In this document: positions 14,353 to 62,860 of the stretch, piece after piece
Layout: every line of letters begins with the position of its first letter
Numbering within the stretch: the stretch's first letter is position 1
NCBI GenBank assembly: GCA_964445355.1
Contig: CAYUKQ010000001.1
Span: forward strand, 12,277 to 76,276
Origin: an uncultured Gammaproteobacteria bacterium
GTDB taxonomy: Bacteria > Patescibacteriota > Microgenomatia > CAYQLK01
Reading direction: 5' to 3'
Length of the DNA: 64,000 nucleotides
Notes under the pieces: model-generated
What the model was told of the DNA's origin: nothing
The model's database searches: none
What the model saw: only the letters and a program-made list of their open reading frames with translations
Translations under genes and position numbers: made by a program

Positions 14353-14381
14353 TTGACAATTATACTATCCTATAGTATAAT
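14353..14381 (+). promoter_or_regulatory. Consensus sigma70-like promoter TTGACA-17-TATAAT in front of the GC-rich ORF
   Basis: TTGACA at 14353-14358, 17-nt spacer, TATAAT at 14376-14381, in AT-rich sequence. SD AAGGAAGG at 14401-14408. Confidence 0.5.
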
Positions 14382-14418
14382 TACCAACAGTTCTTTAAAA
14401 AAGGAAGGTCTGAACAAG

Positions 14419-14853
14419 TTGATCGAAACCCTCAGGAAGCCGCCCCGTGCGCTCAAGATCTACTACCTCGTCCTCGCCGCCTTCTTCGCGGTCTGGGCGG
14501 GCACAATTGCCGGGCAAGCCCCGGACAGCAACACGACCGCCGGCATCATCGCCGTCTGGTTCGGCTACGCCTTCGTTCCGGTCATCGCTCTGGCGTTCGC
14601 GACCGAGTCGCGCCGACCCGTCCTCACCCAGGTCATTCTCTGCTCGAGCGGGAGTGTACTGATCCTGGCAGGGTGGGTGATCGGATACGATTCGGTCAAC
14701 GATCCAGCGCCAATGGTCTGGTACGAGCCGATCATCTTTGTCGCAATCGCGGCGTTGATGGTCTTCCCGATGATGGTCTTCACCCTCATCTACCTCGGCA
14801 TCAGCAAGCTCGCCGGCCACTTCGGCCTCATCCCTACCTTCCTCAGAGCCTAG
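14419..14853 (+). CDS. Small 4-TM membrane protein encoded by an anomalously GC-rich (about 60%) ORF. Function unknown.
   Basis: ORF track gives 14353..14853 using a TTG inside the -35 box. The in-frame TTG at 14419, 10 nt after AAGGAAGG, coincides exactly with the jump in GC content. Four hydrophobic helices. Codon usage is GC3-rich, unlike neighbours. Confidence 0.6.
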   Translation: MIETLRKPPRALKIYYLVLAAFFAVWAGTIAGQAPDSNTTAGIIAVWFGYAFVPVIALAFATESRRPVLTQVILCSSGSVLILAGWVIGYDSVNDPAPMVWYEPIIFVAIAALMVFPMMVFTLIYLGISKLAGHFGLIPTFLRA

Positions 14854-14930
14854 GCAGCCTCACCAGGAGACTGCCAAAGCTCAAAGATCGACTAGGTCGG
14901 GAGCTAAACAAGCTCCCACCTCCCGCTTCA

Positions 14931-14968
14931 GCCCCCGCTCCAAAACCAGTTGGACGGGGGCCTTTTTT
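14931..14968 (+). terminator. Rho-independent terminator after the GC-rich ORF
   Basis: gcccccg(c)tccaa-aaccag-ttggacgggggc hairpin followed by TTTTTT. Confidence 0.7.
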
Positions 14969-14989
14969 GCTAAAATACCTAAAAAACAT

Positions 14990-15499
14990 ATGTCTGCACA
15001 AAAAATTTCTCTCGACCAAGCCAAAAAAGACAAGTTGTTCTATGTCGTGGCCAACGTTGTCGTCTATCGACCTTCAGACCGACGGTGTCTGCTACTCAAA
15101 CGTTCAGACAATGAAAAGGTCCATCCCAGCAAGTACGCAGTTTGCGGAGGTAAGCTTGAATGGTCAGACCTAGATATTACTCACCCCACGAGAGTCAATG
15201 GAGAAGTGCTTGATTATCAAGACGCGCTAGAAAAACTACTCAACCGTGAAGTTTTCGAAGAGGCAGGTATTAAGATCAAACAAGAATTGAAATACATCAA
15301 TAATGTAGCCTACATTCGCCCCGACGGAATACCTGTCGTGCTACTCAAATTTGCTGCTGAATATCTGTCCGGCGAGGTGGTATTAGAAAAGGGGAGTTTT
15401 AGCGATTATATTTGGGTCAATACCCAAGAGCTTAAAGATCTGGATTGTATTAGCGGAATCAAAGAAGAAGTAATACAAACCATCGATATTTTTGCATAA
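14990..15499 (+). CDS. NUDIX-family hydrolase (non-canonical Nudix box)
   Basis: REVFEEAGI matches the REUxEExGU core of the Nudix box. 169 aa. GC content intermediate (about 45%). Confidence 0.55.
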   Translation: MSAQKISLDQAKKDKLFYVVANVVVYRPSDRRCLLLKRSDNEKVHPSKYAVCGGKLEWSDLDITHPTRVNGEVLDYQDALEKLLNREVFEEAGIKIKQELKYINNVAYIRPDGIPVVLLKFAAEYLSGEVVLEKGSFSDYIWVNTQELKDLDCISGIKEEVIQTIDIFA

Positions 15500-16339: not shown

Positions 16340-17200
16340 ATGTGTAGTAAGCGTAAACCGCTTAGTTTTGGATTTAGTTTCATCGAACTTATTGTCTCTA
16401 TAGGCATTTTTGGGGTATTAATTTCACTGATCATTGTCGCTGTCAATCCTGTAAGTCAATTTAAAAGAACTCGCGACGTGCAAAGAGCGTCTGATCTCAA
16501 AGCGATCCAAGTCGGGTTGGAGGCTTATAGGATAGCTAATAACTCTTACCCGTTATCCACACAAGATTTTAAAATTACCGGCACCGATTGGGGAGACAAA
16601 TGGGAGACCTATATGCAGCTTCCAGCCGACCCTTTGGAGGAATATAGTTATGCTTATGTTTCCCAGCTTGGAGACAGCTATCAAATTTATGCTCGGTTTG
16701 AAACCACTCCACCTCAGGAATTAGTCTGCACCCCAAACTGCGGACCGAACGGGCTGTACAATGCCGGTTTAGCCAGTGCAAATAGTTCACTTGCGGCAAT
16801 CATGTTCGTACCTTCACCGACACCAACCGCCACACCCACACCTACAGATCTTCCGCAAGGCAAAGTCTCGTATTTTGGAACTTCAGCAACTTACCCGAAG
16901 ATCATTCAGGTCGATTTTGATCCTCTCGATGTGCCGCTCAACCAGACACAATTACTGACTGCCAAAGTTTGGTCAGAAAATCCCGTTGAGACGGTTACGC
17001 TGCGCCTTGAATTGGATAACACGATTACCGAGACCTACCAGCTTGCCCAAACTTCAACAGTGATCATTAATGGAATATATCGCGATCTCTGGTCGATCAG
17101 TATTCCCCATACCGACAGTCATAATTCTCGGTATTCAGTGTATCTATCTGCCACAGACTCGCAAAGTAATAGTATAAATCCAGAAATAATTATCAGATAA
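16340..17200 (+). CDS. Type IV pilin-like protein (class III prepilin signal)
   Basis: G|FSFIELIVSIGIFGVLISLIIVAV has the prepilin peptidase site with Glu at +5. 286 aa with a Thr/Pro linker (PSPTPTATPTPT). Confidence 0.7.
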   Translation: MCSKRKPLSFGFSFIELIVSIGIFGVLISLIIVAVNPVSQFKRTRDVQRASDLKAIQVGLEAYRIANNSYPLSTQDFKITGTDWGDKWETYMQLPADPLEEYSYAYVSQLGDSYQIYARFETTPPQELVCTPNCGPNGLYNAGLASANSSLAAIMFVPSPTPTATPTPTDLPQGKVSYFGTSATYPKIIQVDFDPLDVPLNQTQLLTAKVWSENPVETVTLRLELDNTITETYQLAQTSTVIINGIYRDLWSISIPHTDSHNSRYSVYLSATDSQSNSINPEIIIR

Positions 17201-17202
17201 AA

Positions 17203-19317
17203 ATGTCTACCCAAAAAATCCTCACCATCAAACAATTAACCAAACACTTAACCAAAATATTGTTTGTGTTTGTCTTTTTAATGTTAGGTAGCATTGCAGT
17301 TGCAAAACTCAATTCTGTTTATGCGGTTTATAGTATTAATTCTGTAACTCCAACTTGTGTTGGAACGACTTCCTCGGTCTCGGTTAATTACAGTGTTGAC
17401 GGCCCAAACGGTGCCGCAGGCACAACAGACAATCCATACAATCAATACTCGACCATGTATGATTTTAGTCAATTCTTGTCTGGTACTTATTCCAGCACTT
17501 GGAACAAAGGCGGATTAGGATTTTCTGCCGGAGTAAGTTACACAATTCTTCTTCAGGACCGCAATTTAGGCTGGCCGTCAATGAACAAAGCATCCCAGGT
17601 GTTTACAGCCCTGAATTGTCAGACACCTCCTACTATTACCTCGCCTACCAAAACATCGTTCACCACCACCGGAGCCACACTTGGGGGAAATGTTACCTCA
17701 GCCGGCAATGGTACTTGGTCAAGCAGGGGAGTATGTGTCGGACTTTCAGCTAATCCTACGACTGGTTGTACCAGCACCAGTGGAACGACTGGAGTGTTTA
17801 CTGTCGCTGTCAGTGGTCTGAGCAGCAATACTCTCTATCACTACCGAGCCTACGCAGCCAGTTCGGCTGGCACGGTTTACACTACAGACGACACCTTTAC
17901 CACGCTCAATCCAAACACCCAACCGACCGTTGTCTCCGGGCCAACACTCAGCTATCAGAACAGTCGTTTCCGAACAGGTCCTAATACAACCTGGTCTCTT
18001 ACTTTGCGAGCTGATGATGCTGAGCAAACAGGTGCGAATGCCTTATCTTGGCAGTTACGTACAGCATCCGGCGGCGGCGGCACACTTATTACCAGCGGAA
18101 CGACGACTAGCGGCCAGACCAACAATTTCGGTAGCTTTGCCTATACACAAACAGGGGTCGTTGAAGGCAGTAATACCGTCTACTTAAGAATCTATGATGG
18201 GACCGCTTGGTCAAACGATTGGTTCAGTTGGTTGTACCGCGATACCGTCAATCCGACCAGTGCAACTTCTATTTCACACTCCCCTGCTAATGTTTCCACG
18301 GATAATAACTACACTGTGACCTTCACACCCAACGATGCTGCAAGTACTAATAGCAATGAGCTTATTGGGTATGTCTACACCGGACCCAACGGTACTGGTA
18401 CATATCTTACAGGCACGTCCGCAACCAGCGGACAATCCAAGACCACCTCAACGATTACAGATACCGCTCTGGTTCAAGGAAACAATACTCGTTATCTCAG
18501 GACCTGTGATGGGGCGAATAACTGCAGTGACACAAGTTTCACAGTTATCAAAAGTAGTACGGCTTCAATATCTTCACCGACCAAGAATTCGATCACGGTT
18601 TACGGAGCAAATCTCGGTGGTAACATCACTACTGACAATGGTAATACCATAACCGGTAGGGGTGTTTGTGTCGGAGCAAGCGCCGACCCTGCTATAGGTG
18701 GAAACTGTATAGGTACAACCGGAACTACTGGAATATTTAGCGTACTTTTTACCAATCTCACCGGCGCAACGACCTACCACTACCGTGCTTACGCTACCAA
18801 CTCCGCCGGTACGGTGTATACAACAGATGACACTTTTATAACAATCACTCCGGCCACAGGATGTACATTCCCGATCTCCGGTGATGTCTCAATCAACTCC
18901 ACCTGCAACATCCCTACCAACGGACTTACCGTATCAACAACACAGTTAAGGCTTGTTGGTTCAGACACAGGCAGTATTCAAATGCTGGCTGATATGACGG
19001 TTAATCCGGGCAGCATTCTTGTTTGGGGTCCGGGAAAACAAATTGTCCGAGCTCCTGGTGTAACAATGTTTAACGCTACCGGAACACAAATTACCCAAAA
19101 ATATATCTGCCTCTATGATCCGGATTCCGATGGTGTGCCTAATGACTACATCGTCAACACTCAAGGCGGGACCGCAGTACTGCAAGACAGCTCAAGCTGT
19201 GGAACGAACTACATTCGTCCAAACTCATTGAATGCGGCATTTTTAGAATTCAATAGTGCGGTCAAAGACCTCGCTCCAGACGATGGATTGTGTTTTGACA
19301 GTGCAACATGTAATTAG
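17203..19317 (+). CDS. Large Ser/Thr/Gly-rich cell-surface protein with two internal repeats of about 90 aa (putative adhesin)
   Basis: N-terminal signal/TM (ILFVFVFLMLGSIAVA). Repeat 1 nt 17638-17907 (TSPTKTSFTTTGATLGGNVTSAGNGTWSSRGVCVGLSANP...YHYRAYAASSAGTVYTTDDTFTTL). Repeat 2 nt 18571-18846 (SSPTKNSITVYGANLGGNITTDNGNTITGRGVCVGASADP...YHYRAYATNSAGTVYTTDDTFITI). Starts 3 nt after the pilin gene. Confidence 0.65.
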   Translation: MSTQKILTIKQLTKHLTKILFVFVFLMLGSIAVAKLNSVYAVYSINSVTPTCVGTTSSVSVNYSVDGPNGAAGTTDNPYNQYSTMYDFSQFLSGTYSSTWNKGGLGFSAGVSYTILLQDRNLGWPSMNKASQVFTALNCQTPPTITSPTKTSFTTTGATLGGNVTSAGNGTWSSRGVCVGLSANPTTGCTSTSGTTGVFTVAVSGLSSNTLYHYRAYAASSAGTVYTTDDTFTTLNPNTQPTVVSGPTLSYQNSRFRTGPNTTWSLTLRADDAEQTGANALSWQLRTASGGGGTLITSGTTTSGQTNNFGSFAYTQTGVVEGSNTVYLRIYDGTAWSNDWFSWLYRDTVNPTSATSISHSPANVSTDNNYTVTFTPNDAASTNSNELIGYVYTGPNGTGTYLTGTSATSGQSKTTSTITDTALVQGNNTRYLRTCDGANNCSDTSFTVIKSSTASISSPTKNSITVYGANLGGNITTDNGNTITGRGVCVGASADPAIGGNCIGTTGTTGIFSVLFTNLTGATTYHYRAYATNSAGTVYTTDDTFITITPATGCTFPISGDVSINSTCNIPTNGLTVSTTQLRLVGSDTGSIQMLADMTVNPGSILVWGPGKQIVRAPGVTMFNATGTQITQKYICLYDPDSDGVPNDYIVNTQGGTAVLQDSSSCGTNYIRPNSLNAAFLEFNSAVKDLAPDDGLCFDSATCN

Positions 19318-19366
19318 AAACAATCATTGACAATCCGTAGCTTTTTGCTACAATCCTATCTCAACA

Positions 19367-19618
19367 ATGAAAGACAAACCAAGGTTGTGTTTGTTAAATA
19401 TTCATAAGTCCACGGGTTCCCGAGCAGTCGCTCGGGTTTTTTTTGATCAAATTTCCCTTCAATCGCTCAAAAACAGCAAAGAGTTTGAGCCGTTTAACCC
19501 CCAGGAACTGCAGTCAATTTTGAGTCTTAATTTCCAAAACCTATCTGCCTTTAGTAGTTCCAACTCATCCAGTTGCGCAGCTTGTTCTCACAGTGGCTGT
19601 CACGGTAATTGCAGATAA
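19367..19618 (+). CDS. Putative RiPP (TOMM/LAP-type) precursor peptide A1. C-terminal core SAFSSSNSSSCAACSHSGCHGNCR. True start uncertain.
   Basis: ORF ends in a Cys/Ser-rich tail typical of azol(in)e precursor cores. Leader shares an N[SA]KEF[ED] motif with the downstream peptide. The terminator hairpin at 19419-19444 lies inside this ORF and no ATG/GTG follows it in frame (only a TTG 32 codons from the end). Start may be internal, or expression may depend on read-through. Confidence 0.4.
   Translation: MKDKPRLCLLNIHKSTGSRAVARVFFDQISLQSLKNSKEFEPFNPQELQSILSLNFQNLSAFSSSNSSSCAACSHSGCHGNCR
19419..19444 (+). terminator. Rho-independent terminator (downstream of surface-protein gene, upstream of or within the RiPP precursor region)
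   Basis: cccgagc-agtc-gctcggg perfect 7-bp stem followed by T8. Confidence 0.75.
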
Positions 19619-19645
19619 ATATTTGAAAGGAGGTGAAAATAAAAA

Positions 19646-19789
19646 GTGAACAAGACTAATAATAACGCTAAAGAATTCGACGAAGTCGTTTCTGAGGTTA
19701 AACTGTCCCAAGAAGAGATTAGTGATGCTACCAGTAGTGCATCTGCACAAGGATCATGTGGTCACACAGGTTCGAATTCAGGTAGATAA
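19646..19789 (+). CDS. Putative RiPP (TOMM/LAP-type) precursor peptide A2 (47 aa): VNKTNNNAKEFDEVVSEVKLSQEEISDATSSASAQGSCGHTGSNSGR
   Basis: Missed by the 60-aa ORF track. GTG start 8 nt after a strong SD (AAGGAGGTG). Acidic leader followed by a Ser/Thr/Cys/Gly-rich core. Lies immediately upstream of YcaO and SagB-type genes. Confidence 0.6.
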   Translation: MNKTNNNAKEFDEVVSEVKLSQEEISDATSSASAQGSCGHTGSNSGR

Positions 19790-19858
19790 AACTCCTTCTC
19801 TCATAGCTAGCTGAGTAATCAAGTGTGAGCTCACACAAATAAAAACAGGATAGTATTT

Positions 19859-21151
19859 ATGTCAAAACAAAGCTTGATCGAAAGCAACTTAGAGTTGCTA
19901 TATCAAAAATGCGTTTCTGCCCACGAAAAAACAAAATTTATATCAACCGTTCATCGGAGCTTTTTCTACAACGATGAACCCAAGCTGTATACGTTCATTT
20001 TGAACAGTAAAAACTCGTCCAAAAAATTCCGTACCAACGCCAGCGGCTCGGCCTGGGATGAAAAACTCGCTTTTATTAAAGGCTATATTGAAATGATAGA
20101 AAGATACGCACTGATCCCTTCAGATCAAGACCTCGATCATTTAGTTCTCTCGTCCGAGACTGGATTGCCTAAGGCAATAAAACTTAGCAAATTCATGAAA
20201 TTCTCACATAGCCAAATGATCGACAAGTTTTTTGCCCGAAAAGTCGCGACCGAGAATGACCCTTTATACTGGACTGAAGCTATTGATTTATGTGCCCGCA
20301 AAACCGTATATATTCCGGCTCAAACTGTTTTTTGTCCGTTCGGAAAAAAAGAAAAAATCATTCGCACGCCAATTTCAACGGGCGCATCAGCGGGTTTGGA
20401 CAAAAATTCAACAATAACCAGGGCAATTTTTGAAGTTCTTGAAAGAGACACGTTTATTTCATCCTATTTGGGTCGCCTTTCAGGTACGATAATTAAGATA
20501 AAAAACCCAAAAGGAGTGATCAAAGATTTACTGGACGAATTTAGCTTTTATTTACTCGAACCAACAATTATCAGATTGGACAACGATTATCATATTCCCG
20601 TCATACTGACAATTCTTACGGATCTGACTAAAAACAAGCCGGTCATTACCTTCGGACTCAAGTGTCATCCTGATCTGAACAGGGCGATTCAGGGTAGTTT
20701 GGAGGAATCATTTCATACTCGCGGATGGATGCGTGACGAATTGGCAAAATCCGATACTGTCTACATTAATTCACTAATCAAAAATATCGAACACACTTAC
20801 GAGCTCAAAGATCGCGGACTTATCTGGTCTCAACCTTTCGTTCTCAAAAACGTTGATTTTTGGCTTAATAACAAAAAAACATTTAATCTATCTCTCAAAG
20901 CAAGTTATCCAAAAATTCCATTAAATACTCTCCTTAAAAAGTTACAAGCAATCGGATTTGATATTTATCTCAAAGAACTAACTGATCCGGAGATCGCCAA
21001 ACTTGGTTTTTACGCCTGTAAGGTCATCATACCCCAAGCACAACCTCTTTACCTGGAAGAGGATTTTCAATATTTGGACACCAGCCGTATTGAAAAGATC
21101 GCAAAACATAAGATCACCAAGCTTAATACATTTTTACAACCCTTCCTATGA
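19859..21151 (+). CDS. YcaO-domain cyclodehydratase (SagD/TOMM D-protein-like), stand-alone
   Basis: N-terminal NASGSAWDEKLAFIKGYIEMIERYA and central PISTGASAGLDKNSTITRAIFEVLERDTF match the YcaO signatures (ASGxG...ERY and SNG-AxG...E--ERD). 430 aa. No fused E1-like domain. Confidence 0.75.
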   Translation: MSKQSLIESNLELLYQKCVSAHEKTKFISTVHRSFFYNDEPKLYTFILNSKNSSKKFRTNASGSAWDEKLAFIKGYIEMIERYALIPSDQDLDHLVLSSETGLPKAIKLSKFMKFSHSQMIDKFFARKVATENDPLYWTEAIDLCARKTVYIPAQTVFCPFGKKEKIIRTPISTGASAGLDKNSTITRAIFEVLERDTFISSYLGRLSGTIIKIKNPKGVIKDLLDEFSFYLLEPTIIRLDNDYHIPVILTILTDLTKNKPVITFGLKCHPDLNRAIQGSLEESFHTRGWMRDELAKSDTVYINSLIKNIEHTYELKDRGLIWSQPFVLKNVDFWLNNKKTFNLSLKASYPKIPLNTLLKKLQAIGFDIYLKELTDPEIAKLGFYACKVIIPQAQPLYLEEDFQYLDTSRIEKIAKHKITKLNTFLQPFL

Positions 21152-21861
21152 AAGATTATATTTCTGAGTTTTTTATCCAAACCGGGACTCAGTCCGATAA
21201 TGCACCCAAGCCTATCCCATATGATAAATGGCCGATTGCCTGGAAAACAATTCATTACAAGAACTACCCCAGATTTCCGCGTATCGGAATTACAAAATTC
21301 AAACCAGTCTCAGAGATCGAAAAAATCATTTCCAGAAGACGAAGTAATCGAAATACCAATAGGATATTATCCGCTGGCAAATTAAAGAAAATCTTGCATT
21401 TTGCAAACTATGGCGTATCAATTGATGGGCGAAGCTATCGTGCGTACCCCTCAGGGGGAGCCAGATATCCGCTGGAAATTTATCTATTTATTAATAATGT
21501 AAAAGGCCTAAAAAAGGGTCTTTATCATTATGCTTTCGAAACAAATTGCTTAGAATTACTTCAGGATAAAGACATGACAGCAGAATTAAAAGACTTGCTG
21601 GTAGATGGCTGGGTTGCCGACTCAGCTGTTTTTTTGGTCATTACCGCCGTTCCCGGCCGAAGTGCGATTAAATATGCAAACAAGTCATTAAGATATCTCT
21701 TTATTGAAGCAGGCCACTTAGGTCAAAATATATTATTGCTGGCAGAAAAATACAAAGTTAATACCTGTCCGATCGGTGGTTTTTATGAAGATAAGCTCAA
21801 TAAACTCCTTCGAATTGACAGGACCAGCGAGAAAGCAATATATTCAATTGCTATAGGTTGA
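21148..21861 (+). CDS. SagB/McbC-type FMN-dependent dehydrogenase (nitroreductase superfamily) of TOMM pathways
   Basis: RSYRAYPSGGARYPLEIYLFI matches the SagB-family R-x-Y-P-S-x-G-A-x-YP-x-E-x-Y motif. 4-nt overlap (ATGA) with the ycaO stop. Confidence 0.75.
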   Translation: MKDYISEFFIQTGTQSDNAPKPIPYDKWPIAWKTIHYKNYPRFPRIGITKFKPVSEIEKIISRRRSNRNTNRILSAGKLKKILHFANYGVSIDGRSYRAYPSGGARYPLEIYLFINNVKGLKKGLYHYAFETNCLELLQDKDMTAELKDLLVDGWVADSAVFLVITAVPGRSAIKYANKSLRYLFIEAGHLGQNILLLAEKYKVNTCPIGGFYEDKLNKLLRIDRTSEKAIYSIAIG

Positions 21862-23609
21862 TTATGAGTAATGAAAAATTAAGGCAAAATTCACCAGAAA
21901 CGAAAATGCTCGAAAAAGAACCATCAAAAGCCAGACTGACAGCAACCGATCTGAGTATTAGTGTCGGCACCAGAGACTTAATAGTTGATGGCAACTTCTC
22001 AATTGGCACATCAGAAAGACTAGCCTTGATTGGTCGTAATGGCAGCGGAAAAACTTCGCTTCTCGACTTGGTTGCCGCTGTTTCCACGGGCGATCAGCCC
22101 CCTGAATATCTCGACGTAAAGGGGGACATTTCTCTGACCCAAGCCAAGGTAGGCTATCTAAGACAAGATATTCAAGTCGCCTATGATGGTACGGTCAAGG
22201 GGTACATAGATCAGTGTGCACAAGATGTAGCTGCAGTCATCGCAAACTACGATGCTCTTACCGCTAGACTGGCTGACGGCGAGACCGGCGACGAGCTAAT
22301 GGATGAATACGGCAAGGCCTTGGATGAGATGTCGCAGCTGGACGCTTGGGACTTCCCTCGCAAAAGAGAAATGATTCTGCAAGGCCTTGGTCTGACAGCA
22401 GATTACTTGGATCGGGATATGACCGAGGTAAGCGGGGGAGAAGCGACAAAAGTATCTTTAGCGGGAATTTTGGTTGCTTCACCTAATCTAATTTTACTCG
22501 ACGAACCGACCAATAATCTCGATCCTGAGAGCGTGAAATTTTTTGAAGAATGGGTCAAAACTACACAAACTTCACTGCTGTTAGTTTCCCACGATCGGGA
22601 ATTTTTAGACGAAACTGTAACAGAAATACTTGAAATAGATGAAGATACAAAACACCTGATCAGATTCGGAGGTAACTATTCTTTTTATAAACAGAAAAAA
22701 CAAGAGATGTTTGACGCACAGATGCGGTCGTATGAAGAACAACAAAAAAAACGTAAACAACTAGAAGATTCAGCAAAGCAGCTGAAACAAGAGGCGCAAA
22801 GATTTGAAGGTATGTCCAACGATTCTTTTTATCGGGCAAAGGGGGGAGGGCTTGCAAAAAGAGCAAAATCTCAACTGGAGCGAATCGAGCGCGAGTTAAA
22901 TGACATTCCCGAGCCAGTACTCCCTAAACGGCCATCCTTTGAGGTAAAAGAACCACAAATTTCAGACGGGACAGTCATGGTGGCTCAAGATCTTTCGTAT
23001 CGTTATCCAAACAACTCCGTTGATACTTTTTCTAAGGTCAATTTTTCTATTCGTGGAGGTGAAAGGGTTGGAATTGTGGGCGCAAACGGTGCCGGTAAAA
23101 GTACACTCCTTCGAGTTTTAATCGGCAACCTTCCTTCTACAGGCGGGAAAGTAGAGCAATTCAAAGGACTCAAAGTCGGATATTTACCTCAAACAACTGA
23201 CAGGCTTAAACCTGATCAGAACATCATCGACTACATTCGCCGAAAAGCCTCTGTCTCCGTCGAAGACGCATATAAAGCGCTTTCCAGAATGCTACTTGAT
23301 GATTCGGCGCACAAATCCGTATCTGATTTTAGTTTTGGAGAGTTTCGCCGTATCGAGCTAGTAGCACTTTTTGCCTCTAATCCTGACGTATTAGTTCTTG
23401 ATGAGCCGACTAATCATTTAGATATTTATACGATCGAAACTCTTGAAGATGCGCTCACTAGATATCACGGGACGGTTATAACTGTTACACACGATGAAAG
23501 ATTCTTAAAAGATCTAAACATCGACAAAATCATTGTTGTCGGAAAAGGCGGGTTAGTCGGCATGCACAAAGTAGAAGATTCAAAAGATGTCGCTGGATAC
23601 TTTACTTAA
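21858..23609 (+). CDS. ABC-F family ATPase (two tandem NBDs, no TMD), translationally coupled to the RiPP enzymes
   Basis: Walker A GRNGSGKTSLL and GANGAGKSTLL. Signature VSGGEATKVSLA. Walker B LLDEPTNNLD / VLDEPTNHLD. Lys/Gln/Glu-rich inter-domain linker (KKQEMFDAQMRSYEEQQKKRKQLEDSAKQLKQEAQRFEG). ATGA overlap with sagB-like stop. Confidence 0.75.
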   Translation: MIMSNEKLRQNSPETKMLEKEPSKARLTATDLSISVGTRDLIVDGNFSIGTSERLALIGRNGSGKTSLLDLVAAVSTGDQPPEYLDVKGDISLTQAKVGYLRQDIQVAYDGTVKGYIDQCAQDVAAVIANYDALTARLADGETGDELMDEYGKALDEMSQLDAWDFPRKREMILQGLGLTADYLDRDMTEVSGGEATKVSLAGILVASPNLILLDEPTNNLDPESVKFFEEWVKTTQTSLLLVSHDREFLDETVTEILEIDEDTKHLIRFGGNYSFYKQKKQEMFDAQMRSYEEQQKKRKQLEDSAKQLKQEAQRFEGMSNDSFYRAKGGGLAKRAKSQLERIERELNDIPEPVLPKRPSFEVKEPQISDGTVMVAQDLSYRYPNNSVDTFSKVNFSIRGGERVGIVGANGAGKSTLLRVLIGNLPSTGGKVEQFKGLKVGYLPQTTDRLKPDQNIIDYIRRKASVSVEDAYKALSRMLLDDSAHKSVSDFSFGEFRRIELVALFASNPDVLVLDEPTNHLDIYTIETLEDALTRYHGTVITVTHDERFLKDLNIDKIIVVGKGGLVGMHKVEDSKDVAGYFT

Positions 23610-24270: not shown

Positions 24271-24804
24271 ATGGCAAATAATGATCCATTACCAGTTGAA
24301 CCTGATTTTTCAATTACCCCATCTGCTGATTCGTTAATTCAATCAAACACCATTGCTGATACTGATCATCCAGCCCAAGCCGCCCAGCCGGTTATTTCAG
24401 ATACCGACGCTCAAACATTAATCGCTGTTGAGTCTATGCTCAAAAATGTTCTTTCAAGGCTAGAATTACTAAAAAACGAACTTAAAGAAGACGCTGACAT
24501 GTTAAAAAGCGCATTTGAGTCAGACCCGGTTTATCGTGAATTTGACGAAAACGCCAAAGCCGCAGCCAAAGACAAGCTTGCCGCCAAAAAAGAGATACTC
24601 AAAAAAACAGACGTTGCCGAACTTAATTTGAAAGTACAAAGCAAACGTTCAGAAATAAAAGAACTTAAAGAAAAGATGTCTGATTATCTGACACAGTTTC
24701 AGCAACTATCAGGTCTTAATGAAATTGAATCAAATGACGGTGAACTGTTAAAAATCGTCTACTCAGCTAGACTAATCCGTCAGAATAGTAAATTCGGCAA
24801 CTAA
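24271..24804 (+). CDS. Hypothetical protein with coiled-coil region
   Basis: 177-aa ORF. Lys/Glu-rich heptad-like segment (KDKLAAKKEILKKTDVAELNLKVQSKRSEIKELKEKM). Confidence 0.5.
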   Translation: MANNDPLPVEPDFSITPSADSLIQSNTIADTDHPAQAAQPVISDTDAQTLIAVESMLKNVLSRLELLKNELKEDADMLKSAFESDPVYREFDENAKAAAKDKLAAKKEILKKTDVAELNLKVQSKRSEIKELKEKMSDYLTQFQQLSGLNEIESNDGELLKIVYSARLIRQNSKFGN

Positions 24805-57212: not shown

Positions 57213-58931
57213 ATGCTCCTGCCCAATGAAGATCTAAAAAAATCACTACTAGAATCAGGTTATGTCAACGAATCCCAATATGCTGATGCACTAAATGCGT
57301 CAAGAATGTTTAAGCAGCCGGTAATAGAAATTATTCTTTCGCGCGGGTTAATTCAAGAAGAGACGCTGGGTGAAGTTCTTTCAAAAACTTCAGGATTTCC
57401 CTTTGCTCCCTTAAAAACCAAAATTGATCCCAAAATTCTTAACATTATCCCCCCGGGGTTCGCTAACAAAAACCGTTGCATCATATTCGATATCAAAGAT
57501 AACGAATTGCAAATCGCTACATCCGATCCGGAAAATCATACAGCGTTTAATCAAATTCAGCTTAAAACCGGCAAAAGTATTAGGTTGTTTTTTACTTTGC
57601 CTTCGATTCTCAACAAGGCTATGGGTCAATACAGGCAGGATATTGCTGAAGGTTTCAAATCCGAAATTACCAAAACCGCTTCACTTGCGGCAAGCTCAGC
57701 CGGTCCCAAAATAGGAGAAAATATTAATGTTGTTAGAACTTTTGACAAAATTTTGCAATTCGCTGCAGCCAAAAATGCTTCAGATATTCACATTGTCGGC
57801 TATCAATCAAGGGTGATTATTAGGTTTAGGATCAATGGTAGACTAAAAGATATCTTAGAGCTACCAAAAAGTATCCAATCAGGTTTGATCGCCAGAATTA
57901 AAATCCTTTCTTCACTCAAGATCGATGAACACCGTGTTCCTCAAGACGGGCGATTCAGATTCGACTACTTAACAGAACAGTACTCAGTTCGTGTTTCAAT
58001 TTTACCTTTATCCACTGGGGAGGATGCAGTCCTTCGTCTACTTTCTGACTCATCCGCCCCAAAAAGCCTTGAAGAAATTGGTCTCCGGGGCAAAAATTTA
58101 GAATTAATGAAAATTGAATTAGAGAAACCTCAAGGTATGATTCTATCAACCGGACCGACCGGCTCAGGTAAAACGACCACGCTATACAATCTCTTAAAAA
58201 TTCTTAATAAAGAAGATGTAAATATTATTACGATTGAAGATCCAGTTGAGTACACGATCGATCGTGTTAATCAGATTCAGGTTAATTCGACCACTGGTCT
58301 TACATTTGCATCCGGACTAAGATCAATACTCCGTCATGATCCGGATATTATTTTGGTGGGTGAAATTAGAGATGCTGAAACTGCTGATATCGCCATTCAC
58401 TCAGCTCTAACCGGGCACTTGGTATTGTCAACGTTACACACCAACGACGCGCCCACAGCTATTCCCAGATTTGAAGATCTTGGAATTGAACCATTCTTAT
58501 TAGCATCAACATTATCAGTAATTATTGCTCAGCGACTTGTAAGAAGATTAGACCCCAACAAAATAGAAAGTTATCAGGTTCCACAGAGTATTATCGATCG
58601 TTTTAGTCAATATCTCGGTTCAGAGGCGTCAACACAATTATTAACCAAAACCAGCTTTTATAAACCAAGAGAAGATGTCGATCCGGAAGAAGTGTTTATT
58701 GGTAGAATTGCTGTATTCGAAATCCTTAAAATAACTCCTAAAATCCGTGAACTTATTCAAAACAAAGCATCGTTAGAAGAGTTAACTGCTCAAGCCAGAA
58801 TTGAAGGCTTTACTACAATGTTAGAAGATGGGATCGATAAAGCCGCCGCTGGTTTAACAACTTTAGAGGAAGTTCTTGACGCAGTATCAGAAAGCGTTGA
58901 TTATGACGATCAATCTGAAAAAAAATCATAA
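57213..58931 (+). CDS. pilB: Type IV pilus assembly / type II secretion ATPase (PilB/GspE family)
   Basis: N-terminal T2SSE_N-like domain. Walker A GPTGSGKTTT. Asp box, Walker B ILVGEIRD, His box HTNDAPTAIPR. Confidence 0.9.
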   Translation: MLLPNEDLKKSLLESGYVNESQYADALNASRMFKQPVIEIILSRGLIQEETLGEVLSKTSGFPFAPLKTKIDPKILNIIPPGFANKNRCIIFDIKDNELQIATSDPENHTAFNQIQLKTGKSIRLFFTLPSILNKAMGQYRQDIAEGFKSEITKTASLAASSAGPKIGENINVVRTFDKILQFAAAKNASDIHIVGYQSRVIIRFRINGRLKDILELPKSIQSGLIARIKILSSLKIDEHRVPQDGRFRFDYLTEQYSVRVSILPLSTGEDAVLRLLSDSSAPKSLEEIGLRGKNLELMKIELEKPQGMILSTGPTGSGKTTTLYNLLKILNKEDVNIITIEDPVEYTIDRVNQIQVNSTTGLTFASGLRSILRHDPDIILVGEIRDAETADIAIHSALTGHLVLSTLHTNDAPTAIPRFEDLGIEPFLLASTLSVIIAQRLVRRLDPNKIESYQVPQSIIDRFSQYLGSEASTQLLTKTSFYKPREDVDPEEVFIGRIAVFEILKITPKIRELIQNKASLEELTAQARIEGFTTMLEDGIDKAAAGLTTLEEVLDAVSESVDYDDQSEKKS

Positions 58932-58938
58932 ATAAAAA

Positions 58939-60018
58939 ATGAATTTCTCAATACCGCTCTTTAACCCGAATCCTATACCGACAAAAACTAAAATTGAATT
59001 TTTTCAGAATCTAGCAACCATGATTGATGCTGGCATCCCAATTGATCAAGCAATCAGATCAATTGTTGAGGATAATGAAAAATCATCAAAAAATATAGTA
59101 TTTAACACTCTTGTTAAAAACCTTGAATCCGGCAAGTCACTTAATGAGGGTATGGCGAATTTCCCAATGTACTTCAGTAGATCTGAAGTATCCGTTGTCA
59201 AAGCTGGTGAAGTTGGTGGTACACTGACCGACTCACTAAGAATTTTAGTTAGAACCCTAAAAGAACAGGAATTTATTAAAAAATCAATTAAATCCGCCAT
59301 GACATACCCAGGTATGGTCATGGGGGTGATGGCAGTGGTAAGTACAGTTCTGGTATTGTTTGTGATTCCCAGACTGGGTGAAACGTTTCTAAGATTAAAT
59401 GTCAAAATTCCATTACCGACCCAGATTCTAATACATGTATCTCTTTTTCTTCAAAAAAACCAAATACTTTCGATTCTTGGAATCATATTGATTACTGTAC
59501 TGTTGATACTATACGCTCGAAGCAATCTTGGTAGGAAATCGCTTATTTGGATTTTATCCAAAATACCTGTAACAAAACGTATTATGCTTGAAATCGATCT
59601 GGCTCGAGTTTCAACCATTTTTTCTTCTCTACTAACTTCAGGAATTCCAATTCTTGAAGTTTTAGATCTTACCAGGGAGACATTAATTTTACCCGAGGTC
59701 AAACGGAGTATTACTCAAATATCACGAGATTTAGCCTCTGGTTCTACTTTAGAAGCGGCATTCGACAAACACCGCAAAATATATCCTTCGACCTTTCGGC
59801 GGATATTGGCAACAGGAGAAAAATCAGGAACTCTGGAAACATCGATGTCGCAAGTATTTGAATATTATTCAACTTCGGTAACAGATAAGCTGAAAAACAT
59901 TTCAGTAATTATTGAGCCTGTTATTTTGATAGTGATCGCACTCGGAGTAGGTGGGTTGATTATTTCTTTTATTGGTCCAGTTTATGAACTTATCGGATCG
60001 TTAAACAAAGCAGTATGA
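58939..60018 (+). CDS. pilC: Type IV pilus / T2SS platform protein (PilC/GspF family, single-repeat form)
   Basis: GspF-domain hallmarks (MIDAGIPIDQAIRSI) and 3 TM helices. 359 aa. Confidence 0.8.
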   Translation: MNFSIPLFNPNPIPTKTKIEFFQNLATMIDAGIPIDQAIRSIVEDNEKSSKNIVFNTLVKNLESGKSLNEGMANFPMYFSRSEVSVVKAGEVGGTLTDSLRILVRTLKEQEFIKKSIKSAMTYPGMVMGVMAVVSTVLVLFVIPRLGETFLRLNVKIPLPTQILIHVSLFLQKNQILSILGIILITVLLILYARSNLGRKSLIWILSKIPVTKRIMLEIDLARVSTIFSSLLTSGIPILEVLDLTRETLILPEVKRSITQISRDLASGSTLEAAFDKHRKIYPSTFRRILATGEKSGTLETSMSQVFEYYSTSVTDKLKNISVIIEPVILIVIALGVGGLIISFIGPVYELIGSLNKAV

Positions 60019-60503
60019 TGCCTAATATAAGTAGGATTAAGACCGGATTTACACTGGTAGAGGTTGTTCTGGTTGTGACAATTTTAGGTCTTGTCGTTGT
60101 ATTTAGCTCAGTTGTATTTAGTAATCAGCAAAACCAAACTAGTTTGGAAAGCACGATACTTGAAGTGAATTCATCAATCAGAGAGGTGCAAAATAAATCC
60201 TTGTCTCAATCTCAGGATATTTCCAGTGACGAAAATTTTGGCATATATTTTTCAACTAATTCATATACTACTTTTAAGGGAAACAGCTATTCAGTCAATA
60301 ACCCAACGAATTTTACGGTTAATTTTGGATCAGGTATCATACTTTCTTCAATCAATTTTCCCAACTCACAACTTATCTTCGATCGGCTTACGGGCAAGCT
60401 AACATCCTATTCAGATTCACAAAACACAATAGTATTCTCAACATTTGATAATGCAACAAAGACACTAACAATCAATCCATATGGCGCAATTACGATTGAA
60501 TAA
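60015..60503 (+). CDS. Prepilin-type (pseudo)pilin
   Basis: G|FTLVEVVLVVTILGLVVV N-terminal methylation motif with Glu+5. Confidence 0.75.
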   Translation: MMPNISRIKTGFTLVEVVLVVTILGLVVVFSSVVFSNQQNQTSLESTILEVNSSIREVQNKSLSQSQDISSDENFGIYFSTNSYTTFKGNSYSVNNPTNFTVNFGSGIILSSINFPNSQLIFDRLTGKLTSYSDSQNTIVFSTFDNATKTLTINPYGAITIE

Positions 60504-62337
60504 AGGAATTGCCCTAATAGAATTATTAATTGCGATTGCAATATCATCGATCATTATCGGTTTAGCGATTCAAGTCATGACTCTGGTTAGGTCTACTTTT
60601 TTATCATCAAATATCCGATATACATCTAGGGATTTACTTGATAGTACTGTTGATATTATCCGATCGATCAAAGAGTCTGATTGGGATATTCTCACAATTG
60701 ACGGAGTTTATCACCCGGTGATATCCGGAGAGCAATGGACTCTTACTCCTGGCGACGAACAGATCTCGGGAACCCAGTTTAATAGATCAGTTGAAATACT
60801 CAGTGTTTGTCGAGATGAATCACTTGCTGTGGTTACATGTCCAGCGGGCACGAACGACCCAGATTCCAGGACGGTAAATATTGATATTTCCTGGACTAGC
60901 CCAATTCCAGGATCAATCAGCAGTAGTCAGTTATTAACCAGGTACGCAGGCAATGGTTTTTGGAATCAGTCCACTACGACAGATTATAATTCAGGTGAAA
61001 AAAAGAACCTTCTTACCACCACTGTCGATGATGGGGAGTTGGCACTGGAATCAAACAACGGGCCGGGGTGGTCATCATCAAGTCGGGTAGGCAACATTAA
61101 TATTACTAACTCCCAAGTTGTGAATAGTCATTATATTTACGATAGTAAGCTTTTTCTTGTCAAAGACAATGATCCTGGTGGTCAAGAACTATTAATTTAC
61201 AGTCTGTCTAATCCGGCAAGTCCAGGACTTATTTCTGCAACCGAGCTTGGTGCAAACGGCAAAAAAATTATTGTTCAAAACGGTTATGCATATGTCGCCA
61301 CATCGGATGATAGCCAAGAATTAAAAATATTTAACATTTCCGACCCAACTTCACCTTTACCAATTGGTAATCTCAACTTAAGTGGTTCAACGGATGCCAC
61401 GAATCTCGCACTTTCTGGTTCTAGACTATATCTAATTAGAGCGCTTGATGTAACCGAGAACGAATTTTACACAATAAACATATCCAACCCCGCTCTTCCA
61501 TCACTTGTCTCCTCCCAAAATTTTACCGATACCATAAGTGATATTGCTGTCGACGGAAAATATGCTTATATATCAACATACATTAATAACGCCGAAGTAA
61601 CCGTGATCGATCTTACGATAAATTATCCTACAGACAATAATATTGTTGAAGAATACGACATCAGTGGCAATGAAGATACCAGAGCAATTAATTTTCTCTA
61701 CCCTAATATTTATGTTGCTTCATCGCAAAACAAGATCTACATTCTCAACGCCCAAAACCCCCAAGCTATTTCAGAGCTTACCCAGTTTAATCTTAATAAT
61801 ATCGGCGATATCTATATAGCAGACAATAAAGCATTTTTTACAGACTTAACTTCGGGCACAGGACTCTATATTTATGATATTTCAACACCTTCATCGCCCT
61901 CAAGTGTTGGTAATCATGCTGTAGGTGCTAACGCATATACAGTTATTACAAACGGCTCATATGCTTACGTACTTAACCAATCGAACTCTCGCGAGTTAAT
62001 CGTGGTTAATGGCGGCGGTACCGCAAACGTGACATATGGAGAATTTATTTCCCAAACTTTTGATACTGGTAATGGTTTGACTACAATTCAATCAGTTTCT
62101 TGGAATGCTGACTTGCCCGTCGGTACACAAATTGAATTTCAGATCGGCGTTAACTCACTCGGTTATGCGTTTGAGTTTGTTGGCCCGGACGGGACACCGG
62201 ACACCTATTTCACCTCCACAGGTTCTTACCCACTATCATCTTCCGATGGTCAATATATTAAGGTCAAGGCCATTCTGTCTGGTGACGGAACAGCCACACC
62301 AACCATTGAAGATATTAGATTAACTTATATACAGTGA
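60481..62337 (+). CDS. Prepilin-type N-terminus fused to an LVIVD-repeat beta-propeller domain (putative tip/minor pilin adhesin)
   Basis: N-terminal KGIALIELLIAIAISSIIIGLA prepilin-like helix. At least 5 LVIVD-type repeats (NGYAYVATSDDSQELKIFNISDPTSP; SRLYLIRALDVTENEFYTINISNPALP; GKYAYISTYINNAEVTVIDLT; LYIYDISTPSSPS; SYAYVLNQSNSRELIVVNGG). 618 aa. Confidence 0.7.
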   Translation: MAQLRLNKGIALIELLIAIAISSIIIGLAIQVMTLVRSTFLSSNIRYTSRDLLDSTVDIIRSIKESDWDILTIDGVYHPVISGEQWTLTPGDEQISGTQFNRSVEILSVCRDESLAVVTCPAGTNDPDSRTVNIDISWTSPIPGSISSSQLLTRYAGNGFWNQSTTTDYNSGEKKNLLTTTVDDGELALESNNGPGWSSSSRVGNINITNSQVVNSHYIYDSKLFLVKDNDPGGQELLIYSLSNPASPGLISATELGANGKKIIVQNGYAYVATSDDSQELKIFNISDPTSPLPIGNLNLSGSTDATNLALSGSRLYLIRALDVTENEFYTINISNPALPSLVSSQNFTDTISDIAVDGKYAYISTYINNAEVTVIDLTINYPTDNNIVEEYDISGNEDTRAINFLYPNIYVASSQNKIYILNAQNPQAISELTQFNLNNIGDIYIADNKAFFTDLTSGTGLYIYDISTPSSPSSVGNHAVGANAYTVITNGSYAYVLNQSNSRELIVVNGGGTANVTYGEFISQTFDTGNGLTTIQSVSWNADLPVGTQIEFQIGVNSLGYAFEFVGPDGTPDTYFTSTGSYPLSSSDGQYIKVKAILSGDGTATPTIEDIRLTYIQ

Positions 62338-62855
62338 TGAAAAATATAATAAACAGATTACGATTTTTTAAGGTTACCAGTCGCCAAGGCACAACATTTG
62401 TCGAGGTATTGCTATACATTGCATTGCTTTCAATCGTTATTGTTTTTATAACTGACATTATTCTACAAACGCTTAACTTTATGATTGAATCTCGGAATAT
62501 CTCCTATTTAGATTCGGACGCTCGATTTATTAGCACGAAGTTAAGAAACGATCTACGAAAAGCCGATACGATTTCAGTACCTACAACAATTGGAGAGACC
62601 TCCAATAGTATTACTTTTGAATATGAGAGCGATAACTATACTTATAGCCTTAGTGATGGAATTTTACAGATCACCGATCCGAATGGCACATACCGTATTA
62701 ATTCTGACCAAACTACGGTTAGCAGTTTTTCAGTTACAAATAGGAGTTATGCTCTTGGTGCCACTACGCTCGATTTTGATATAGTCTTAAATTCCAGAAC
62801 TGTTTCAAGCAGTATAGATCAAATTAACCTTAATTTTACTGTCAATAATCGATAA
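62334..62855 (+). CDS. Prepilin-type pseudopilin
   Basis: QG|TTFVEVLLYIALLSIVIV with Glu+5. ATGA overlap with the upstream gene. Confidence 0.65.
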   Translation: MMKNIINRLRFFKVTSRQGTTFVEVLLYIALLSIVIVFITDIILQTLNFMIESRNISYLDSDARFISTKLRNDLRKADTISVPTTIGETSNSITFEYESDNYTYSLSDGILQITDPNGTYRINSDQTTVSSFSVTNRSYALGATTLDFDIVLNSRTVSSSIDQINLNFTVNNR

Positions 62856-62860
62856 ATATA

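What the first reader, a model, noticed from the sequence alone, without database searches (positions are those of the whole stretch)
19859..21861. YcaO + dehydrogenase without an E1-like/RRE-containing partner
Canonical TOMM cyclodehydratases need an E1-like C protein (Ocin-ThiF-like, with an RRE) either fused or adjacent. Here the 430-aa YcaO begins directly with the YcaO domain and no such gene is in the operon. Either the partner is encoded elsewhere, leader recognition is RRE-independent, or the ABC-F or an unrecognised region substitutes. This makes the system non-canonical.
Basis: partly seen in the sequence, partly recalled or inferred. Interest (0 to 1): 0.55.

Follow-up and report, generated by a model that had tools for sequence, protein, structure and literature searches.

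The report
Azole-peptide enzyme pair lacking usual partner
This is a small antibiotic-peptide gene cluster from an ultra-small (CPR) bacterium in which the ring-forming YcaO enzyme and its dehydrogenase work without the peptide-recognising partner protein that textbook systems need; this holds for a whole family of such clusters, so how they recognise their substrate is an open question.

Summary
Window 19859-21151 encodes a 430-aa single-domain YcaO, translationally coupled to a 237-aa SagB/McbC-type dehydrogenase (21148-21861) and an ARE-like ABC-F (to 23609). Two Cys/Ser-rich precursor genes lie just upstream. I found no E1-like, Ocin-ThiF-like or RRE/PqqD domain by HMM in the operon or in the roughly 40 window ORFs scanned (the rest were only read by eye as housekeeping genes). 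I found none by structure in either enzyme: the AlphaFold models match only YcaO and McbC folds.

The absence is a family trait. Among 77 distinct relatives, mostly from CPR bacteria and one from a DPANN archaeon, the dehydrogenase is the only constant neighbour (61 loci). The next are M16 peptidase (21) and ABC ATPases (8). None is E1-like, so the ABC-F cannot be the substitute.

Precursors across the family share a leader motif, [DN]A[KMR][EP][FM] (NAKEF in the window). This points to sequence-specific recognition by the YcaO/dehydrogenase core itself.

CPR YcaO-nitroreductase clusters were catalogued in 2020 (PMC7298704), and partner-less YcaOs are known from bottromycin. The missing partner in an azole synthetase was not discussed there and is untested. 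A partner encoded in trans is not excluded.

The parts
19327..19354 (+). Near-consensus sigma-70 promoter (TTGACA, 16 nt, TACAAT, with TG extension) for the operon
   Evidence: 11 of 12 matches. Conserved in the 84%-identical relative L001.
19367..19618 (+). Precursor candidate A1 (83 aa). Leader contains NSKEF; core is ...SSSNSSSCAACSHSGCHGNCR.
   Evidence: Against L001, the core shows mostly synonymous changes and the frame is kept. Conserved in L012 and L013.
19419..19444 (+). Intrinsic-terminator-like hairpin (CCCGAGC-AGTC-GCTCGGG plus T8) inside the A1 ORF; candidate attenuator
   Evidence: The stem is invariant and the loop varies in L012/L013. No Rfam match.
19646..19789 (+). Precursor candidate A2 (47 aa, GTG start behind AAAGGAGGTGA). 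Leader contains NAKEFDEVV; core is ...SSASAQGSCGHTGSNSGR.
   Evidence: Conserved in L001, L012 and L013. The core motif SC[GS]HTG[ST]NS is shared with precursors of the 38%-identical clade.
19859..21151 (+). YcaO cyclodehydratase (D protein), 430 aa, single domain; no fused E1-like or RRE domain
21148..21861 (+). SagB/McbC-type FMN dehydrogenase (B protein), 237 aa; start overlaps the YcaO stop
21858..23609 (+). ABC-F ATPase of the ribosomal-protection type (probable self-immunity). The likely true start is the ATG at 21864.
   Evidence: NF000355 407 bits, above its 380 cutoff. The same position is occupied in L001/L002 and, after a C39-like peptidase, in L003, L015 and L016.

Best explanation
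The locus is a minimal linear azole-containing peptide (LAP/TOMM-type) cluster from a CPR (Microgenomates-like) bacterium. It works without a C/F (E1-like, RRE-bearing) protein.

Proposed pathway (all steps inferred):
1. One promoter drives the two precursor genes A1 and A2, then YcaO, a SagB-type dehydrogenase and an ABC-F.
2. The single-domain YcaO uses ATP to cyclodehydrate Cys/Ser residues in the C-terminal cores to azolines.
3. The McbC-like FMN dehydrogenase oxidises the azolines to azoles. The overlapping stop/start suggests it is made in step with YcaO and probably complexed with it.
4. The ABC-F protects the producer's ribosome, which implies a translation-targeting product.

Leader recognition is intrinsic to the YcaO/dehydrogenase core. 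It reads a short conserved leader motif, [DN]A[KMR][EP][FM] (NAKEF and NSKEF here). The family-specific, near-invariant N-terminal D39-E40-P41 loop of the YcaO is a candidate contact, but this is speculative.

Shown here: the gene content, the folds, the absence of any RRE or E1 domain, and the family-wide conservation of the two-gene core and the leader motif.
For: Domain identities.

No partner found by HMM in the operon or in the window ORFs scanned.

No partner found by fold:
- The dehydrogenase model aligns 222 of 237 residues to McbC.

The absence is a family trait:
- Seven hand-inspected contexts show YcaO plus nitroreductase and no ThiF.
- In 77 non-redundant loci the dehydrogenase is present in 61, and in 59 it lies immediately downstream on the same strand. 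Other recurrent neighbours are M16 peptidase (21), ABC ATPases (8), APH-like kinase (6), His phosphatase (6) and HprK-like (6). None is E1-like or PqqD-like.
- The top 150 library representatives, all above 380 bits, are nearly all 400-460 aa and none carries a long N-terminal domain that could be an E1-like fusion (the one long protein, P0172, is an Amidohydro_2 fusion).

Azoline-type rather than thioamide-type:
- The best NCBIfam model is the SagD family.
- The C-terminal FPHPFL/LQPFL aligns with the PTPMPF C-terminus of TruD and LynD.
- The Glu/Arg motifs are invariant.
- Cys/Ser/Gly-rich precursors lie beside most loci (56 of 67 by a loose score that also admits some chance segments).

Leader motif: about 3.5 versus 0.04 occurrences per 1000 aa in the opposite-strand control.

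Prior literature calls such CPR clusters LAP clusters (PMC7298704).
Against: - No biochemistry exists for this family.
- In canonical systems the D protein alone is nearly inactive. The C protein both binds the leader and activates D (established knowledge on BalhCD and McbBCD).
- Only the window (64 kb) and 6-10 kb flanks of relatives were examined, so a partner encoded in trans cannot be excluded.
- SagC/McbB-like proteins are very divergent and could escape HMMs. However, no unexplained conserved neighbour exists either.
- The leader motif was defined after looking at the data.
- The YcaO scores below the SagD-family trusted cutoff, and its closest structural neighbour is a thioamide-forming archaeal YcaO.
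- The role proposed for the DEP loop has no direct support.
Confidence: 0.6

Rival explanations
1. A canonical C/F partner (E1-like with an RRE, or a small stand-alone RRE protein) exists but is encoded elsewhere in the genome and acts in trans. The enzymology would then be ordinary.
For: Only 64 kb of the genome is visible. Haloazolisin clusters have been described with a precursor and an F-like gene at a distant site (PMC4603692). Canonical D proteins depend strongly on C (established knowledge).
Against: None of 77 distinct loci has such a gene within 6 kb, although the dehydrogenase is adjacent in 61. The genomic neighbourhoods differ completely between clades, so the two-gene unit appears to move as a self-sufficient module. 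CPR genomes are small, about 1 Mb. No hit in any window ORF scanned.
Confidence: 0.2
2. The YcaO does not make azolines. It performs another partner-independent YcaO reaction (backbone thioamidation or amidine formation), and the nitroreductase-fold protein has a different role.
Against: - The dehydrogenase is SagB-type, above its NCBIfam cutoff, and structurally closest to azoline oxidases (McbC, BmdC, ThcOx).
- It is fixed immediately downstream in 59 loci.
- The precursor cores are rich in Cys/Ser/Gly, like McbA-type substrates.
- The C-terminal Pro motif aligns with cyanobactin heterocyclases and is absent from the MJ1094 alignment.
- TIGR03266 scores 72 against a cutoff of 365.
- No TfuA appears in any neighbourhood.
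Confidence: 0.1
3. The ABC-F, or another cluster-specific accessory protein, takes over the leader-binding role of the missing C protein.
For: The ABC-F is translationally linked to the dehydrogenase in the window and in two related clades.
Against: ABC ATPases occur in only 8 of 77 family loci, and several well-sampled contexts (L005, L008, L010, L011) have none. The protein is a complete, ordinary ARE-type ABC-F with no spare domain. No ABC-F is known to bind RiPP leaders (my own knowledge).
Confidence: 0.03

Closest known systems
CPR linear azole(in)e peptide clusters reported by Sharrar et al. 2020 (mBio, PMC7298704), e.g. Microgenomates_ANG_785
   Same: Same host group. The same YcaO followed by a nitroreductase-type dehydrogenase. 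An adjacent precursor of about 84 aa with a Cys/Ser-rich end. That paper reports 110 such clusters in 93 CPR genomes, 89 of them with the nitroreductase next to YcaO.
   Different: That description includes a peptidase; the window cluster has none and carries an ABC-F instead. In the passages my term search returned, the paper does not mention the missing E1-like/RRE partner, the leader motif or the ABC-F link.
Microcin B17 synthetase McbBCD (PDB 6GOS) and other canonical TOMM BCD synthetases (BalhBCD, SagBCD)
   Different: There is no McbB/SagC/BalhC-type E1-like protein with an RRE anywhere in the operon, the scanned window ORFs or the related loci. In canonical systems that protein binds the leader and activates D.
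Cyanobactin heterocyclases LynD, TruD and MusD (fused C-D)
   Different: Those enzymes are about 780 aa, and their N-terminal ~400 residues (RRE plus E1-like domains) precede the YcaO domain. The window protein corresponds only to residues ~403-775.
Partner-independent ('standalone') YcaOs: bottromycin BotC/BotCD and the Methanocaldococcus jannaschii McrA-thioamidating YcaO (PDB 6PE3)
   Different: Bottromycin uses a follower peptide, has no SagB dehydrogenase and makes one thiazoline or a macroamidine. MJ1094 thioamidates a folded protein. Here the substrate is a leader-bearing, multi-Cys/Ser peptide and the pair includes an azoline oxidase.
Ribosome-targeting LAPs klebsazolicin and phazolicin
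   Same: Linear azole peptides that inhibit the ribosome (PMC7136475). The ARE-type ABC-F in this operon predicts the same target class.
   Different: Those clusters have canonical C and D proteins and export pumps rather than an ABC-F (my own knowledge). The library search for papers combining ABC-F, YcaO and ribosome returned none that contains both 'ABC-F' and 'YcaO'.

Membership tests
Canonical TOMM/LAP azole synthetase (B-C-D) | YcaO (D) domain with the conserved ATP/Mg-binding Glu/Arg motifs | tested here: met
Canonical TOMM/LAP azole synthetase (B-C-D) | E1-like C protein or Ocin-ThiF-like F protein carrying an RRE, fused to or encoded beside the YcaO | tested here: not met
   No HMM hit in the operon, the scanned window ORFs or neighbours of relatives. 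No such fold in the YcaO or dehydrogenase models. No conserved third gene in 77 loci.
Canonical TOMM/LAP azole synthetase (B-C-D) | SagB-type FMN dehydrogenase (B) in the cluster | tested here: met
Canonical TOMM/LAP azole synthetase (B-C-D) | Adjacent precursor peptide with an N-terminal leader and a Cys/Ser/Thr-rich core | tested here: met
   A1 and A2. Analogous peptides beside most related loci.
Canonical TOMM/LAP azole synthetase (B-C-D) | Pro-rich PxPxP C-terminus of the D protein | tested here: inconclusive
   The family consensus ends FPHPFL and the window protein ends LQPFL. This aligns with the PTPMPF end of TruD and LynD, but the third Pro is missing.
NCBIfam TIGR03604 (SagD family TOMM cyclodehydratase) | Score at or above the curated cutoff (219.25 bits) | tested here: not met
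   179.9 bits. It is the best-scoring model but is below the cutoff.
Standalone YcaO of the bottromycin type | No partner protein, and substrate recognised through a C-terminal follower peptide | tested here: not met
   The partner is absent (met). However, the cores are C-terminal and the conserved motif is in an N-terminal leader. Sequence relatedness to BotC was not tested.
Thioamide-forming YcaO (TfuA-associated, or the methanogen marker) | TfuA neighbour, or a score above the TIGR03266 cutoff (365 bits) | tested here: not met
   TIGR03266 scores 71.8 bits. No TfuA appears in any inspected neighbourhood. The fold similarity to MJ1094 is at superfamily level.
CPR LAP clusters (Sharrar et al. 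2020) | CPR host; YcaO immediately followed by a nitroreductase-type gene; adjacent Cys/Ser-rich precursor | tested here: met
   Relatives are named Microgenomates, Levybacteria or Dojkabacteria. Gene order. Literature. The peptidase shown in the published example is absent from the window.
ARE-type (ribosomal protection) ABC-F | NCBIfam NF000355 at or above its cutoff; two ABC domains with an inter-domain linker | tested here: met
   407.3 bits, cutoff 380. Two PF00005 stretches plus PF12848. Resistance function is not testable here.
Any azole-forming system | Demonstrated azol(in)e formation on the peptide | not testable with these tools
   Requires expression and mass spectrometry.

The most novel reading that the evidence does not exclude
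The YcaO-SagB pair is a self-sufficient two-protein azole synthetase. It has a new leader-binding site, unrelated to RREs, on the YcaO or at the YcaO-dehydrogenase interface. The family-specific D39-E40-P41 loop may be part of that site. It reads the conserved [DN]A[KMR][EP][FM] leader motif. This would be a minimal, portable module that spread through CPR bacteria and DPANN archaea. In the window's lineage it makes a ribosome-targeting peptide countered by a dedicated ABC-F, with the operon possibly autoregulated through the terminator embedded in the first precursor gene.
Probability: 0.4. Interest if true: 0.7.

Novelty: new variant of a known kind. Interest (0 to 1): 0.5.

Why it matters
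In every biochemically studied azole-forming RiPP synthetase, an E1-like or Ocin-ThiF-like protein with an RRE both docks the leader peptide and switches on the YcaO.

A large natural family achieves leader-dependent, multi-site azole formation with only a 430-aa YcaO and a 237-aa dehydrogenase. The 150 best cluster representatives all score above 380 bits, and the metagenome scan confirmed 432 relatives. If this family is active as it stands, it would give:
- the smallest known azole-installing toolkit for peptide engineering;
- a test of whether YcaO domains carry an intrinsic, so far unrecognised leader-binding site;
- a warning that genome-mining rules requiring a C/F partner miss much of the RiPP capacity of uncultivated ultra-small prokaryotes. 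For example, PMC7136475 restricted its survey to such clusters.

The ABC-F link also offers a target-based prediction (the ribosome) for an otherwise unknowable product.

Tried and rejected
- **Hidden RRE in the dehydrogenase N-terminus.** Rejected. Residues 1-55 form a short helix plus an extended arm, and 222 of 237 residues superpose on McbC.
- **Missed ORF between 19318 and 19858.** Only the two precursor ORFs are there.
- **Second YcaO at 1471-2763 (also 430 aa).** It is aspartyl-tRNA synthetase.
- **The 177-aa coiled-coil protein at 24271-24804.** It gave weak PqqF-like and SagD hits (E 0.006 and 0.4). I judge these to be noise: the gene lies beyond a convergent gene and is absent from other clades.
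- **AlphaFold docking of the A2 precursor to YcaO.** I tried a linker fusion and the natural in-frame read-through.
- **Genome scan with the 42-sequence alignment.** Failed for lack of a conserved stretch. It was redone with sub-alignments.
- **Rfam search of the leader region.** Nothing found.
- **The Chem Rev 2017 YcaO review.** Not held in the library.
- **The 70-105 aa N-terminal extensions in a sister sub-family.** No Pfam match. They could not be modelled and are not present in the window protein.
Full report
**What is there**

The stretch 19327-23609 on the + strand reads as one operon.
- A near-consensus promoter (TTGACA, 16 nt, TACAAT) at 19327-19354.
- Two short ORFs with Ser/Cys/Gly-rich ends:
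  - A1, 19367-19618, 83 aa, ending ...SSSNSSSCAACSHSGCHGNCR.
  - A2, 19646-19789, 47 aa, with a GTG start behind AAAGGAGGTGA, ending ...SSASAQGSCGHTGSNSGR.
- A 430-aa YcaO at 19859-21151.
- A 237-aa dehydrogenase at 21148-21861, whose start overlaps the YcaO stop.
- An ABC-F running to 23609.

Domain assignments:
- YcaO: Pfam PF02624 over residues 65-394 (E 2.7e-39). The best NCBIfam model is the SagD family TIGR03604 at 179.9 bits, below its 219 cutoff.
- Dehydrogenase: SagB-type, TIGR03605 at 130.7 bits against a cutoff of 78.4.
- ABC-F: passes the ribosomal-protection-like model NF000355 (407 bits, cutoff 380).

**Is a partner hidden nearby?**

- HMM scans found none. No E1-like, ThiF, Ocin-ThiF, SagC, McbB or PqqD/RRE model hit any operon protein or either short ORF. 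None hit any of the roughly 40 window ORFs scanned with Pfam and/or NCBIfam at permissive thresholds.
- The remaining ORFs were not scanned. I read them from their translations as RelA-like, tRNA synthetases, ribonucleotide reductase, Lon, SecA, H+-PPase and type IV pilus genes. The precomputed Pfam annotation of the syntenic locus L001 covers roughly window 8.2-30.9 kb.
- An in-frame stop 31 nt upstream of the YcaO ATG rules out a longer protein.

**Is an RRE hidden inside the two enzymes?**

YcaO. An AlphaFold2 model built on 42 relatives is very confident (pLDDT 93.8, pTM 0.94).
- Residues 1-64 form two helices and three strands that continue directly into the YcaO core.
- A profile search of PDB sequences agrees. 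The cyanobactin heterocyclases match only from residue ~403 onward, after their RRE and E1-like domains.

Neither enzyme has room for, or shows, a winged-helix RRE.

**Is this a one-off or a family trait?**

The word-indexed protein search found 45 relatives. The named ones come from Microgenomates and Levybacteria.

Seven hand-inspected neighbourhoods differ completely, except that a nitroreductase-type gene always follows the YcaO, usually with overlapping stop and start. The extras were:
- an ABC-F (window clade);
- a C39-like peptidase plus an ABC-F (L003, L015, L016);
- an M16 peptidase (L010).

A profile search of 1.84 billion cluster representatives gave 150 top hits, all above 380 bits. 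Nearly all are 400-460 aa. About ten carry a 70-105 aa N-terminal extension; I scanned nine long ones with Pfam, which found nothing in the extensions. One is fused to an amidohydrolase. None is long enough at the N-terminus to hold an E1-like domain.

A metagenome scan confirmed 432 relatives and returned 80 loci. The results:

| Neighbour | Loci |
|---|---|
| SagB-type dehydrogenase | 61 (59 immediately downstream, same strand) |
| M16 peptidase | 21 |
| ABC ATPases | 8 |
| APH-like kinase | 6 |
| Histidine phosphatase | 6 |
| HprK/PEPCK-like P-loop protein | 6 |
| Unknown small proteins (two clusters) | 5 and 4 |

- Of the 77 loci, 68 have an ORF downstream of the YcaO at all.
- None of the recurrent neighbours is E1-like or PqqD-like. 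Ten unannotated neighbours scanned with NCBIfam gave nothing relevant.
- The pair also occurs in an Aenigmatarchaeota (DPANN) contig.

The absence of a C/F protein is therefore a property of the family. The ABC-F, present in a minority, cannot be the general substitute.

**What the enzymes most likely do**

Several lines point to azoline/azole formation rather than another YcaO reaction:
- The fixed SagB/McbC-type partner.
- The SagD family as the best model.
- The invariant ExxER and ExxERD motifs (E78, E81, R82; E192, R196, D197; also E283).
- A C-terminal FPHPFL (LQPFL in the window) that aligns with the PTPMPF terminus of TruD and LynD. It is missing from the MJ1094 alignment.
- Cys/Ser/Gly-rich small ORFs beside most loci. 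The count is 56 of 67 by a loose score that also admits some chance segments; many are unmistakable, such as ...GSCGGGSCGGGSCGGSCGCDGCC....

Evidence that A1 and A2 are real precursors:
- Between the window and its 84%-identical relative, the A1 core changes mostly at synonymous positions.
- The A2-type core motif SC[GS]HTG[ST]NS recurs in the clade whose YcaO is only 38% identical.

**How might the leader be recognised?**

Precursors from many clades carry a short motif upstream of the core, [DN]A[KMRQ][EPD][FMI]. Examples are SDAKEFS, RDAKPMM, KDAMPME and RDARPIV. The window has NAKEF in A2 and NSKEF in A1.
- With a fixed regular expression the motif occurs 3.5 times per 1000 residues in candidate precursors.
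- It occurs 0.04 times per 1000 in opposite-strand translations of the same regions.
- The motif was defined after seeing the data, so the enrichment is indicative only.

A conserved leader motif, with no conserved third protein, argues that the YcaO, the dehydrogenase or their complex reads it. The YcaO family has a near-invariant N-terminal D39-E40-P41 loop. It is absent from MJ1094 at the aligned position and lies outside the region that aligns with cyanobactin heterocyclases and McbD. It is a candidate contact, but that is speculation.

**Rivals**

- **A partner in trans elsewhere in the genome.** This cannot be excluded with 64 kb and 6-10 kb flanks. I give it about 0.2, because the two-gene unit sits in unrelated neighbourhoods and never brings such a gene along.
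- **A different chemistry (thioamide or amidine).** The closeness to MJ1094 suggests it. The dehydrogenase type, the precursor composition, the C-terminal motif, the absence of TfuA and the TIGR03266 score (72 against a cutoff of 365) all argue against it. About 0.1.
- **ABC-F substitution.** Effectively ruled out by the distribution.

**Comparison with what is known**

- Sharrar et al. 2020 (PMC7298704) reported a Microgenomates LAP cluster (YcaO, nitroreductase, peptidase, 84-aa precursor). They also found 110 such clusters in 93 CPR genomes, 89 with the nitroreductase next to YcaO. The cluster type is therefore already catalogued.
- In the passages my term search returned, that paper does not discuss the missing partner.
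- Reviews define the minimal LAP cluster as A plus D, "in most cases" with a C or F partner, plus B. They list bottromycin's enzymes as the "standalone YcaOs" (PMC7136475, PMC4603692).
- One major mining study explicitly excluded partner-less YcaOs (PMC7136475).
- The library search combining ABC-F, YcaO, ribosome and self-resistance returned no paper that contains both 'ABC-F' and 'YcaO'.

I therefore file this as a new variant of a known kind. It works like a TOMM azole synthetase but fails the defining C/F-partner feature. It belongs to an already noticed but uncharacterised CPR family.

**Side observations**

- A canonical intrinsic-terminator hairpin (CCCGAGC-nnnn-GCTCGGG followed by T8) lies inside the A1 reading frame, about 60 nt after the promoter. 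Its stem is invariant while the loop, and hence the encoded residue, varies among relatives. This suggests a translation-coupled attenuator for the whole operon, ABC-F included. Rfam has no match.
- The window cluster lacks the leader peptidase that most relatives have.

**Verdict**

The finding is moderately interesting (0.5). It is a widespread, minimal, partner-less azole synthetase whose mode of leader recognition is unknown. The interest is tempered by prior cataloguing of the clusters, by known precedents for partner-independent YcaOs, and by the untested possibility of a partner in trans.

Noticed in passing
window 19419-19444 (+), inside ORF 19367-19618: An intrinsic-terminator-like hairpin plus T8 is embedded in the first precursor ORF, about 60 nt after a consensus promoter. 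The stem is invariant and the loop varies in relatives (L001, L012, L013). It may be a translation-coupled attenuator controlling the precursors, the enzymes and the ABC-F. There is no Rfam match.
   Followed up: partly
window 19367-19789; loci L016, L020, L030, L034, L036, L037, L049, L051, L053, L055, L067, L070, L075: Precursor leaders across divergent family members share the motif [DN]A[KMRQ][EPD][FMI] (NAKEF and NSKEF in the window). It is roughly 90-fold enriched over opposite-strand control translations. The motif was defined post hoc.
   Followed up: partly
window 21858-23609 (+): An ARE-type ABC-F (NF000355 above its cutoff) is translationally linked to the dehydrogenase. It is also present after a C39-like peptidase in L003, L015 and L016. 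This predicts a ribosome-targeting product. No paper returned by the library search contains both 'ABC-F' and 'YcaO'.
   Followed up: partly
window 19327-23609 compared with L003, L010, L011, L015, L016 and 21 metagenome loci: The window cluster has no leader peptidase, whereas relatives carry a C39-like or an M16 peptidase directly after the dehydrogenase.
   Followed up: no
P0059, P0110, P0122, P0134, P0137, P0145, P0158, P0043 (proteins); P0172: A sister sub-family of these YcaOs has a 70-105 aa N-terminal extension with no Pfam match. That is RRE-sized, but the fold is unknown. One member is fused to an Amidohydro_2 domain, which is a separate upstream gene in L011.
   Followed up: partly
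L018 4090-5953: A YcaO plus SagB-type pair with a Ser/Gly-rich precursor sits on a contig assigned to a DPANN archaeon (Aenigmatarchaeota). The module is therefore shared between ultra-small bacteria and archaea.
   Followed up: partly
window 16340-19317 (+) and 57213-63238 (+): A pseudopilin-like gene and a 704-aa secreted repeat protein (weak FN3-like Pfam hits only) lie directly upstream of the cluster. A type IV pilus operon with further pseudopilins lies at the window's end. A pilin-like gene also precedes the YcaO in L005-L007.
   Followed up: no
window 14353-15173: A G+C-rich patch (0.46 against about 0.39) contains several long, mutually overlapping ORFs on both strands. Only the 166-aa membrane-like ORF appears conserved in relatives.
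   Followed up: no
L012, L013 (record titles): Contigs syntenic with the window at 75% YcaO identity are titled 'uncultured Gammaproteobacteria' in their records, although the gene content and relatives are CPR-like. The MAGs are probably mislabelled.
   Followed up: no
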